In this document: positions 18,018 to 59,591 of the stretch, in pieces
How positions within the stretch are numbered: the first letter of the stretch is position 1
Layout of the letters: the number at the start of each line of letters is the position of its first letter
Assembly: GCF_006345805.1 (NCBI RefSeq)
Contig: NC_043009.1
Coordinates: forward strand, 48,112,001-48,176,000
Source: Octopus sinensis
Taxonomy: Eukaryota
Reading direction: 5' to 3'
DNA: 64,000 nt
Program-made: the position numbers and the translations under genes
Notes under the pieces: model-generated
Seen by the model: only the letters and a program-made list of their open reading frames with translations
Databases searched by the model: none
What the model was told of the DNA's origin: nothing

Positions 18018-18904
18018 CTGACAGATTTGTAAGTAGATAAACAGAGAGGCAGGGAGAGAGATAATTAAAGAGTGTGCAAAATATATGTAATCTCAAAAGA
18101 AACAAATTCAATATAAAGAATGCATTAAAATGCGTTAAAGGACGTGCGTGCGTAAATGGAGATATCTTGAGAAATATAGACTATATCTGTTCCTTCATTA
18201 TAAAGTTGAGCATCGTGCTCAGAATGATAAATACGAACAGTATTTTGGTTAAAAACATCTCCATCCTATCTAAAATTTATTACTCCAAATGCTTAATGGA
18301 TAAAAAAAAGAACCCAAGTATTTCATTAGAAGAATGAAATGAAGTACTTACGTAATTGAGAAGGGCACGCAGAGAGATGATACTAAGTTCGAATGTTTTT
18401 AAGGTTTAGGGAATAACATCTAAAGTTTAAAAAGAGCTAAAGACGTTCGAAGCATATCTCTATAATTTGGCAAAAAAAAAAAAAAAATTCTTGAAGTTCT
18501 ATAATAGCTTTAAAAAATCCTGAAACAAAAACTTAATTGCTTTACGTGATTCTGAAAAAAAAATATCTTTGTCTCATCGGTTGAAACCAAAATCCTTTAT
18601 GGCGTTGATAAAAGCACAGAAAAGGGAAGTACTGTTCAGTAACATCACCAATATTTGTAAAATAATTGGACACCATTACACACACTTCTATTACCCTTGA
18701 GGCTTAAGATATTGCTGCAGCTCTTAACACAGGGAACAGTGTAGAATTAACGTAAATTGCTCCATTGGTGGATGTTAAATTTTAGGATATTATTCTGAAC
18801 ATATGTAGGCAGAACAATGAATTTTGCCTGAAGAGCTATGTTATGGCGAAACTAGTAGTTTTAGTATAGAGTGTAGTACCTAGGTATTAATAAATAATAG
18901 ATTT

Positions 18905-34846: not shown

Positions 34847-34891
34847 TTACTTAACCGGTTTCACTCTTTGGTAAAAGATTGTCAAAAGTAA
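34847..34891 (-). ncRNA. Type-I hammerhead ribozyme candidate, U3:A8 core variant
   Basis: TTACTT-TTGACAA-TCTTT(TACC)AAAGA-GT-GAAA-CCGG-TT-AAGTAA; perfect 6-bp stem I, 5-bp stem II, palindromic stem III. Confidence 0.6.
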
Positions 34892-57879: not shown

Positions 57880-59160
57880 TAATAATAACAATATTGCCAC
57901 CCCAAACACATAAAAATTAATATACTTTATAATCTAGCGAAAAAAATTTGTACCATAGTTTCGGACACCTATACTCGTAAAAGAAGACTCGTTGAACACA
58001 GATCAATACTAATCAAAATACATTACCCAATATTAATAAGTAATGGCATTAAACGAGCTATGGAAATAGACATACGAACATTAAAGGAAGTCAACCTAAA
58101 TACTAAACCAGACTTAAAAATACTCCTGTACATCACACAACCCTAGAAACAACAAAGCTTTCAACATTATCACCCAAAATTTTCCCAGCCTCACAGGAGA
58201 TAAAACAATGAACAAAATTTTAAGCTTATACAAAATTATCAAAAGCAAAATGCAACCTAAATCACTGAAAAAAATATTAACTAGCGAAAGACTATATCCA
58301 TTAACAACAGAACCCAAAGTGAAAAAATGTGGTCGACCTACCTGTCATGACCCCACCTTTTGGAGGGTTCAGAATTCCACTTCAAACAAGGTGAAATATT
58401 TAAGATCAAATCAAATTTCGCCTGTGCCCCGGAAAATCTAATCTATGCCATTACGTGCTTTGGGTGTGGTAATAATTATATTGGCCAAACAGGAATATCA
58501 CTCCATCGAAGAACCAATTTCCACAAAGAACAAATCCGCCACCCACAATACAGATAGATACAGGTTAGTGAAAACATAGAAAGGTGTGCTAGGAATCTTA
58601 ATCTTAATTTCCTAATTTTCTCCTTCTATCAAAGTTCATATAACACCTCAGTACAACAAAGAATAAATAAAGAGGCAACTTTCATCAATAAATATCTTCC
58701 CCAAACTAATATGAACATATAACATAATACAGAACACTACTAATCTTTCAATTAATACCACTAACCCCATACATCCAATACACTATTCACATTACAGATC
58801 TATATTTAACCTTATTGCACCAAATCCACAACTACTTACCTTCCTTACACATAATCTTTTTATACAGGGACTAGTAGACCTGACACCTTTCATTAATCGG
58901 TGTGCATTCAAAGCAATGATTAGTAAATTTACGAAACCGGTATGCTTTTAAATCTCTTTAACAATTCACATTAATGACTTTTATTACTTTGATTCCTACC
59001 TCAGTTCATCTATTTGTATATATCTATCGTTACTTTTCATTAAAAGCCTTTGCTTCTTTTGATTTCCAATGTGCATTTTCGCTTATTTTTCTTCATACTT
59101 TCCTCTTATATTTCAACGTGTGGTTTCGAATTTCTTTTTGTAACATATGTCTATTATATA
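57880..59160 (+). mobile_element. Penelope-like element 3' part: RT C-terminus, GIY-YIG endonuclease, 3' repeat region
   Basis: INILYNLAKKICTIVSD, KKCGRPTC, NLIYAITCFGCGNNYIGQTG...RRTNFHKEQI; frameshifts and stops; ends at (TA)n. Confidence 0.9.
58910..58948 (+). ncRNA. Type-I hammerhead ribozyme candidate, A3:U8 core variant
   Basis: AAAGCA-ATGATTA-GTAAATTTAC-GAAA-CCGG-TA-TGCTTT; perfect 6-bp stem I, palindromic stems II and III, GUA triplet; sense strand, downstream of the Penelope ORF. Confidence 0.7.
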
Positions 59161-59591
59161 TATATATTTATTAAAATTTCATTCTTTTGGGTAAAAAGTA
59201 TTTAGTGGGGTTGAATGAATACATAAACCTCTTTGTTGTCTTTTGATCACAAAATCTCCCACAAATCGCATGTTACTGATTAAAAATTTACGATGGAAGC
59301 ATTCAGTAATGAAGTCCAGATACGACATTCCTGTACACATGCTGAGATGATCATAGTTGGAAAAACTTTGAAATTAGACATACTCAATTAGGTAAAAGCA
59401 GGAGTTAAACTAAATACTAACAAAATACTTCTGCTTCAAGATTTTAACCACGGTGGAACTGATGAAACCTTACAGTGTCGAAACTTCAATTATTCACTTA
59501 TTAAAACTGTAGTTTCTCTCATATTGTTACGATTGTTGAAAAGCAAATCTGAAAATTTGATTTTCTAAAATGATTTAATTAATATGTTTTT

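What the first reader, a model, noticed from the sequence alone, without database searches (positions are those of the whole stretch)
58910..58948. Penelope-linked hammerhead with an A3:U8 core pair
Seen: 39 nt with perfect stems (AAAGCA/TGCTTT; GTAAATTTAC; AC-CG-GT), core ATGATTA...GAAA and a GUA triplet, predicting cleavage after 58942. It is on the sense strand about 190 nt downstream of the GIY-YIG region. Known: Penelope terminal repeats carry minimal type-I hammerheads, normally with C3:G8. Inference: together with U3:A8 at 34847 and the C3:G8 relics, three different 3:8 pairs occur in one window, suggesting a diversified set of non-canonical octopus ribozymes. I cannot verify novelty without a literature and database search.
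Basis: partly seen in the sequence, partly recalled or inferred. Interest (0 to 1): 0.72.

Follow-up and report, generated by a model that had tools for sequence, protein, structure and literature searches.

The report
Jumping-gene hammerhead with swapped core pair
A family of Penelope-type jumping genes carries a tiny hammerhead RNA motif whose usual C-G core pair is replaced by A-U, and related copies show that this A-U likely arose from G-C by a paired double change, so the pairing is likely kept by selection and the RNA likely still cuts itself slowly, although cutting is untested.

Summary
The motif is real and A3:U8 is the family state, not a chance double mutant: 82 of 100 listed copies are A:U, 11 are G:C, 7 are mismatched and none is C:G. 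It lies 187 nt behind the GIY-YIG frame of a 5'-truncated, broken Penelope-like element. A tree built without the motif nests the A:U copies inside older G:C lineages, while more distant families are A:U again. Positions 3 and 8 are 2 of only 9-13 differences in 1,166 columns between the sister subfamilies. Genome-wide, among motifs with an ACCGGU stem III, A:U (1,232), pyrimidine:purine (3,127, mostly U:A) and G:C (92) outnumber canonical C:G (152). Cleavage is not shown: no usable RNA ends were found, 0 of 30 copies start at the cut site, and one published scan found only the G:C swap active. Natural U3:A8 is in print; I found no natural A3:U8 or G3:C8, but two key papers were not readable. 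This scan noted A3:U8 Penelope hammerheads before in other genomes, so it is not specific to this animal. Verdict: new variant of a known kind.

The parts
58910..58948 (+). Type I hammerhead motif with A3:U8 core pair
   Evidence: Sequence; descriptor scan and shuffles; family alignments
58910..58915 (+). Stem I, 5' strand (pairs with 58943-58948)
   Evidence: 6 Watson-Crick pairs; across 122 motifs of related families each of the 6 positions is paired in 99-112 of 122, with several pair types
58916..58922 (+). Core A3 U4 G5 A6 U7 U8 A9
   Evidence: positions 3 and 8 change together to G and C in a subfamily
58923..58932 (+). Stem-loop II, about 3 bp plus 4-nt loop; a 10-nt palindrome in this copy
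   Evidence: G10.1:C11.1 or G-U in 116 of 122 motifs picked with G10.1
58933..58942 (+). G12 A13 A14, palindromic stem III (58936-58941) and A17; predicted cut after 58942
   Evidence: Sequence; monomer and dimer energies; cut site inferred from hammerhead numbering, not observed
57895..59170 (+). 5'-truncated Penelope-like element copy (RT thumb/linker, GIY-YIG endonuclease with frameshift and stops, 3' UTR, tail)
   Evidence: Homology limits with other copies; longer copies of the family carry RT upstream
58354..58713 (+). GIY-YIG endonuclease remnant
   Evidence: 47% identity to the intact endonuclease region of a related family; Pfam PF01541 E 0.0014, below the curated cut-off, on a 66-aa piece
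34847..34891 (-). Second hammerhead motif, U3:A8 with a U10.1-U11.1 mismatch, in the 3' end of a young Penelope-like family
   Evidence: 41 matches at 96-100% identity; 29 of 29 aligned copies U:A; RT and GIY-YIG frames upstream in 5 loci examined

Best explanation
The 39 nt are a type I hammerhead motif in the 3' terminal repeat region of a Penelope-like retrotransposon; A3:U8 is the state of the family, it likely arose from a G3:C8 ancestor by two compensating transitions, and the RNA likely cleaves slowly after A58942 only as a dimer. In a hammerhead, position 8 contributes its 2'-OH and is held in place by a Watson-Crick pair with position 3, so the letters can change if the pair is kept (established knowledge; PMC8495972). 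The self-complementary stem III cannot close in one strand, so two copies (tandem repeats of one transcript, or two transcripts) would pair as a double hammerhead (inferred). Partial cleavage would trim read-through or tandem transcripts to unit length, while most insertions are copied from uncut RNA (inferred from intact motifs in the copies). The window copy itself is a truncated, frameshifted insertion with an intact motif and no partner copy in the window, so it is probably inactive in place.
For: Family state: 27 of 31 best-matching copies A:U, 2 G:C, 2 mismatched; 244 genome matches against 1 control, first 100 listed 82 A:U, 11 G:C, 7 mismatched, 0 G-U, 0 C:G (counted from the listing); 21 exact G:C copies. 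Direction: in a tree of 44 rows built on the endonuclease and UTR with the motif left out, the window's group (19 A:U plus 2 single mismatches, SH-aLRT 94) sits inside successive G:C lineages, and the 4 most distant rows are A:U; starred branches force at least 2 changes of the G:C label (13 of 57 rows dropped for lack of a callable motif; midpoint root). Compensation: 23 G:C against 16 nearest A:U copies differ at 9 clear (13 total) of 1,166 columns, 2 being positions 3 and 8 and no other inside the motif; chance for a named pair about 5e-5 to 1e-4. Stems I and II covary between families. Genome counts against reversed controls: A:U 1,232/9, G:C 92/0, Y:R 3,127/16, C:G 152/37. Both letters also change in contigs of two other organisms (G at 58916 in 17 and 15 contigs, C at 58921 in 15 and 19; linkage not shown). 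Penelope context: RT upstream in 10 of 15 long loci analysed, two 3' end peaks about 59110 and 59165 like the Penelope tail. A C3G/G8C double mutant partly restores cleavage in a Penelope hammerhead (PMC11167929).
Against: No cleavage shown. In a full double-mutant scan of a type III hammerhead only the G:C swap rescued activity; other double mutants in that region were low (PMC9901934). 0 of 30 copies picked by the sequence 3' of the cut begin at the cut; 27 run through the motif. The double-hammerhead fold (-15.1 kcal/mol) is about 2 kcal/mol above the best dimer fold (-17.2), in which the palindromic stem II pairs between strands. No copy with a second, 5' motif among 15 long loci. The switch within this family is a single event, the two groups were defined by these letters, and its branch has no star (a tree that kept the motif gave 98/85). 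Copy divergence does not order the subfamilies (G:C 5.9%, A:U 7.4% from own majority). Four copies at three loci have a stem II cut to one pair; only 17 of 46 pattern-picked copies keep the 3' core and C11.1 intact. In the anole element cleavage was not needed for insertion in vitro and no RNA ends were found at the cut (PMC11167929).
Confidence: 0.7

Rival explanations
1. The fold is selected but cleavage is negligible: the 3:8 pair keeps a hammerhead-shaped structure used for protein binding, dimerisation or template choice.
For: Copies are made from uncut RNA; catalytic mutants did not affect insertion in vitro (PMC11167929); A:U double mutant low in one scan (PMC9901934); stem II is only 2-3 bp; minimal Penelope hammerheads cleave weakly even as dimers (PMC4209133).
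Against: The 3:8 pair forms in the catalytic conformation (PMC3884650), so keeping it points to catalysis. Position 17 is A, C or U in the main families (my patterns required non-G there, so this is weak).
Confidence: 0.16
2. The A:U lineage is a decaying or unselected motif: the two changes accumulated by chance in one master copy after the ribozyme stopped mattering.
For: Single event; stem II weakens and a 21-bp duplication of stem I plus core appears in later A:U subfamilies; mutation rate in the 3' half of the motif (9.0%) is no lower than in the flanks (6.5-7.3%), as expected for dead copies under either reading.
Against: Chance of both partners being among 9-13 changes in 1,166 columns is about 1e-4; no amplified G-U or A-C intermediate (0 and 1 of 100); independent A:U families with covarying stems exist.
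Confidence: 0.08
3. The A:U core was imported from another A:U family by template switching or gene conversion, not evolved in place.
For: More distant A:U families are abundant in the genome and some share the same 7-nt core.
Against: Stems I, II and the triplet match the G:C subfamily and differ from those A:U families; a 6-7 nt conversion tract would be needed. Import would still imply a viable A:U pair.
Confidence: 0.05

Closest known systems
Minimal and short-stem-III type I hammerheads of metazoan Penelope-like elements (Cervera and De la Pena 2014, PMC4209133; read: main text parts 1-2 of 4, supplement parts 1-2 of 3)
   Same: Type I topology, place in the terminal repeat behind the endonuclease, palindromic 15.2-16.2 region, G10.1:C11.1, mostly single 5'-truncated copies, predicted dimer mode, a covariant core (U3:A8 in Schistosoma).
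   Different: Purine at 3 and pyrimidine at 8. All 56 rows of their Fig. S3, as extracted text, begin CUGA or UUGA. Stem II here is 2-3 bp without the extra nucleotide after A9, against about 4-8 bp with it in most of their examples.
Natural core variants of hammerheads (Perreault et al. 2011, PMC3088659; read: passages)
   Same: Natural covariation at 3:8; 2-bp stems II; U10.1-U11.1 mismatch, as in the 34847 motif.
   Different: The passages seen report only U3:A8 as natural; A3:U8 and G3:C8 are not named there.
Engineered 3:8 swaps (PAc Penelope hammerhead, PMC11167929, part 1 of 4 and passages; double-mutant scan, PMC9901934, passages; Przybilski and Hammann 2007, title seen in a reference list only, content recalled)
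   Same: G3:C8 supports partial cleavage; recalled: any Watson-Crick pair can work, depending on the surrounding elements.
   Different: Those are laboratory mutants; here G3:C8 and A3:U8 are the natural states of amplified families, with a traceable switch.
Short-stem-III Penelope hammerheads that cleave as dimers (Lunse, Weinberg and Breaker; PMC5785218 not held; seen only as cited in the review PMC6765202, passages)
   Same: Palindromic short stem III, Penelope association, dimer cleavage.
   Different: Unknown whether their alignments hold purine-3 cores; the paper and its supplements could not be read.

Membership tests
Type I hammerhead ribozyme | Three-way junction with N3 U4 G5 A6 N7 N8 A9, G12 A13 A14, A15.1:U16.1, H17 | tested here: met
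   all present except the canonical letters at 3 and 8
Type I hammerhead ribozyme | Watson-Crick pair between positions 3 and 8 | tested here: met
   A:U here; 93 of 100 listed family copies paired; compensated G:C subfamily
Type I hammerhead ribozyme | Canonical letters C3 and G8 (consensus and Rfam models) | tested here: not met
   0 of 100 family copies C:G; no Rfam hammerhead match at E <= 10
Type I hammerhead ribozyme | Stems I and II supported by covariation | tested here: met
Type I hammerhead ribozyme | Loop I / loop II tertiary contact of fast hammerheads | tested here: inconclusive
   Loop II is short and variable; folds of longer stretches gave no clear extended stem I with an internal loop
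Type I hammerhead ribozyme | Self-cleavage 3' of position 17 | not testable with these tools
   Only assembled contigs were available
Penelope-like element, endonuclease-bearing | RT followed by C-terminal GIY-YIG endonuclease | tested here: met
   GIY-YIG remnant in the window; RT upstream in 10 of 15 long loci, including A:U-group copies L262, L264, L266
Penelope-like element, endonuclease-bearing | Tail and inverted or tandem partial copies | tested here: met
   3' ends peak near 59100-59119 (23) and 59160-59179 (50); inverted partners and one 3-unit tandem of about 575 bp
Penelope-like element, endonuclease-bearing | Two terminal repeats flanking a full ORF, each with the hammerhead | tested here: inconclusive
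   No 5' motif within about 6 kb upstream in 15 loci analysed of 17 fetched; family homology reached at most about 3 kb
Neptune or Nematis clade | Cys-rich linker between RT and endonuclease; placement among reference RTs | tested here: inconclusive
   Linker complete in the 34847 family and partly visible before a frameshift in the window copy; motif definition from PMC8557442 (passages); no tree with named references was built

The most novel reading that the evidence does not exclude
In Penelope-like elements the 3:8 core pair is an exchangeable part: all four Watson-Crick pairs and a U-G wobble are natural, active states, lineages switch between them by compensated steps (here G:C to A:U), and in this genome the textbook C3:G8 form is the minority, so standard searches miss most purine-3 ribozymes; the pair may tune cleavage to the slow rate these elements need.
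Probability: 0.4. Interest if true: 0.68.

Novelty: new variant of a known kind. Interest (0 to 1): 0.5.

Why it matters
It gives natural, phylogenetically traceable evidence that the hammerhead 3:8 pair is under selection for pairing and not for identity, which until now rests mostly on engineered mutants and the U3:A8 case. It also argues that Penelope hammerheads matter to the element, which is an open question: in vitro work found cleavage dispensable. In practice, descriptors fixed on CUGANGA or UUGANAA miss at least 1,324 purine-3 motifs here against 152 canonical ones, counting only motifs with an ACCGGU stem III. The sister subfamilies, identical in the motif except at 3 and 8, are a ready-made natural pair for kinetics.

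Tried and rejected
Rfam: whole window gave only microsatellite-driven miRNA hits among the 150 of 535 listed; the local search gave no hammerhead, only weak snoRNA-like hits at E > 2, rejected as chance. RNA evidence: no RNA holder listed; runs guessed to be RNA hold only contigs, which cannot show ends; not counted for or against. Genomic footprint of cleavage: none, 0 of 30; the pile-up of 5' ends at 58890-58909 (17) is biased by picking copies on the motif, so not used. Dating by divergence: the first estimate was biased by best-hit picking and reversed with pattern-picked copies; not used for direction. Protein tree: too weak inside the family (3 starred branches); it only shows that U:A, A:U and G:C groups are related elements. 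One search's reversed control (910 against 1,833) was too high to be useful; tighter patterns replaced it. 'Chance double mutant of a C3:G8 family' rejected. Literature: searches found no natural A3:U8 or G3:C8; Przybilski and Hammann 2007, Lunse et al. and Martick and Scott 2006 were not held, and bioRxiv supplements are closed, so absence from print is not established.

Full report
Observation. The motif is present at 58910-58948 as described. A descriptor allowing any Watson-Crick pair at 3:8 found 2 hits in the window; only this one has 6 bp in stem I and 3 or more in stem II, and none of 40 shuffled windows gave such a hit. The descriptor was written after seeing the motif. Two corrections apply. 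Stem II is a 10-nt palindrome and can close only about 3 bp in a monomer. Stem III cannot close in a monomer: forcing one pair costs +2.6 kcal/mol against -2.7 with it open. Rfam has no hammerhead match here.

Context. The motif starts 187 nt after the stop of a GIY-YIG frame that is 47% identical to the intact endonuclease of a related family and is broken by a frameshift and stops. The insertion runs from about 57895 to 59170. The genome search found 1,564 candidates, scored 40 and reported 42 matches, the window copy plus 41 at 90-93% identity. Longer copies carry RT upstream (10 of 15 loci analysed, of 17 fetched). The 3' ends fall into two peaks about 60 nt apart, and inverted and tandem partial copies occur. 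These are Penelope-like features (PMC11167929, PMC8557442; passages read). No copy with a second motif at the 5' end was found.

Is A3:U8 the consensus? Yes. Of 31 full motifs in the 30 best loci, 27 are A:U, 2 G:C and 2 mismatched (one partial row left out). A pattern with positions 3 and 8 free gave 244 matches against 1 control. Of the first 100 listed, 82 are A:U, 11 G:C, 2 A:G, 2 A:A, 1 A:C, 1 U:U and 1 U:C; none is G-U or C:G (my count).

History of the pair. The G:C copies form a real subfamily (21 exact matches), and older relatives with shorter stems II are also G:C (92 matches, 0 controls). In a tree of the endonuclease and 3' UTR with the motif left out, the window copy lies in a group of 19 A:U and 2 singly mismatched rows (SH-aLRT 94, not starred) nested in successive G:C lineages. 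The 4 most distant rows are A:U (44 of 57 rows used; midpoint root). At least two switches between A:U and G:C are needed. Between 23 G:C copies and the 16 nearest A:U copies there are 9 clear and 13 total differences in 1,166 columns. Two are positions 3 and 8, and no other lies in the motif; the chance for a named pair is about 5e-5 to 1e-4. This is one event, and the groups were defined by those letters, but the 3:8 pair was the prior hypothesis. Divergence does not order the subfamilies, so the direction rests on the tree.

Genome-wide picture, for motifs with an ACCGGU stem III only. With a short stem II: A:U 1,232 (control 9), G:C 92 (control 0), pyrimidine:purine 3,127 (control 16; first 100 listed 88 U:A, 12 U-G, 0 with C3, my count). 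The patterns are not identical and other stem III loops were not counted, so this is not a census of all hammerheads. Across 122 motifs in my loci, stem I positions are paired in 99-112 with several pair types (near-copies included). The window's second motif (34847-34891, minus) is U3:A8 in 29 of 29 aligned copies of a young Penelope-like family. Contigs of two other organisms show both the A/U and the G/C letters.

Mechanism. Shown: sequence, family state, compensated switch, Penelope context. From established knowledge: position 8 acts through its 2'-OH and the C3G/G8C swap partly restores activity (PMC8495972, PMC11167929; passages); short palindromic stems III work as dimers with low activity (PMC4209133; PMC6765202, passages). 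Inferred: two copies pair through stem III and exchange stem I strands, then cut after A17. That fold is predicted at -15.1 kcal/mol, about 2 above a rival dimer paired through the palindromic stem II. Cutting must be partial or late, because copies carry the motif intact and 0 of 30 begin at the cut. The likely role is trimming of read-through or tandem transcripts. The window copy has no partner in the window and is probably inert.

Against. A complete double-mutant scan of a type III hammerhead found only the G:C swap active in this region (PMC9901934, passages), so A:U may be slow or context-dependent. Cleavage was dispensable for insertion by the anole element in vitro (PMC11167929). Some later A:U copies have a weakened stem II. 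No RNA-end data could be obtained.

Novelty. Natural U3:A8 is published (PMC3088659, passages; PMC4209133). All 56 rows in Fig. S3 of PMC4209133, as extracted text, begin CUGA or UUGA. Searches found no natural A3:U8 or G3:C8. Lunse et al. and Przybilski and Hammann 2007 could not be read, and the former's alignments may hold such cores; my statement that any Watson-Crick pair can work in some contexts is recalled. Of the 2026 retrozyme preprint I read part 1 of 5; of PMC7229834, PMC6155905 and PMC3884650, passages only. Five earlier notes of this scan report A3:U8 Penelope hammerheads in other genomes and one in a phage (unchecked, looked up after my own family result). The variant is therefore likely widespread in animals, not a feature of this lineage alone.

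Verdict. A real hammerhead-family motif with an apparently unreported natural core pair and good comparative evidence of selection on that pair; catalysis is untested. New variant of a known kind; interest 0.5.

Noticed in passing
window 34847-34891 (-); L117-L121: Young Penelope-like family (96-100% identical copies) with a U3:A8, U10.1-U11.1 hammerhead about 2.8 kb behind the ORF, across a microsatellite-rich 3' UTR; inverted partial copies flank the insertions.
   Followed up: partly
listing: An amplified family with a U3-G8 wobble core (7 identical motifs among the first 100 listed; 12 U-G in all). One U-G row is also in Fig. S3 of PMC4209133.
   Followed up: no
L191, L192, L195, L200: U3:A8 or U3-G8 families in which stem I pairs one register out, leaving an extra unpaired U before position 3.
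   Followed up: no
L053, L061, L062, L064, L071, L072, L077, L082: A subfamily with a 21-bp tandem duplication of the stem I 5' strand and core, and a 9-nt stem-loop II; also seen in contigs of other runs.
   Followed up: partly
L245-L254: The main C3:G8 family of this motif type occurs in short tandems and inverted pairs about 355 bp apart, like a non-LTR retrozyme or terminal-repeat array.
   Followed up: no
L059: Three tandem 575-bp units of the element's 3' end, each with G at position 17, which usually impairs cleavage.
   Followed up: no
window 18828-18860 (+): Degenerate C3:G8 hammerhead-like motif with a palindromic stem III and a weak stem I.
   Followed up: no
window 59459-59490 (+): C3:G8 core with stem II but no intact triplet or stem I; belongs to a different old insertion behind the element; no other match found.
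   Followed up: partly
L122-L148: Large A3:U8 families with only a 2-bp stem II and a 4-nt loop, GUC triplet and covarying stem I, behind GIY-YIG frames.
   Followed up: partly
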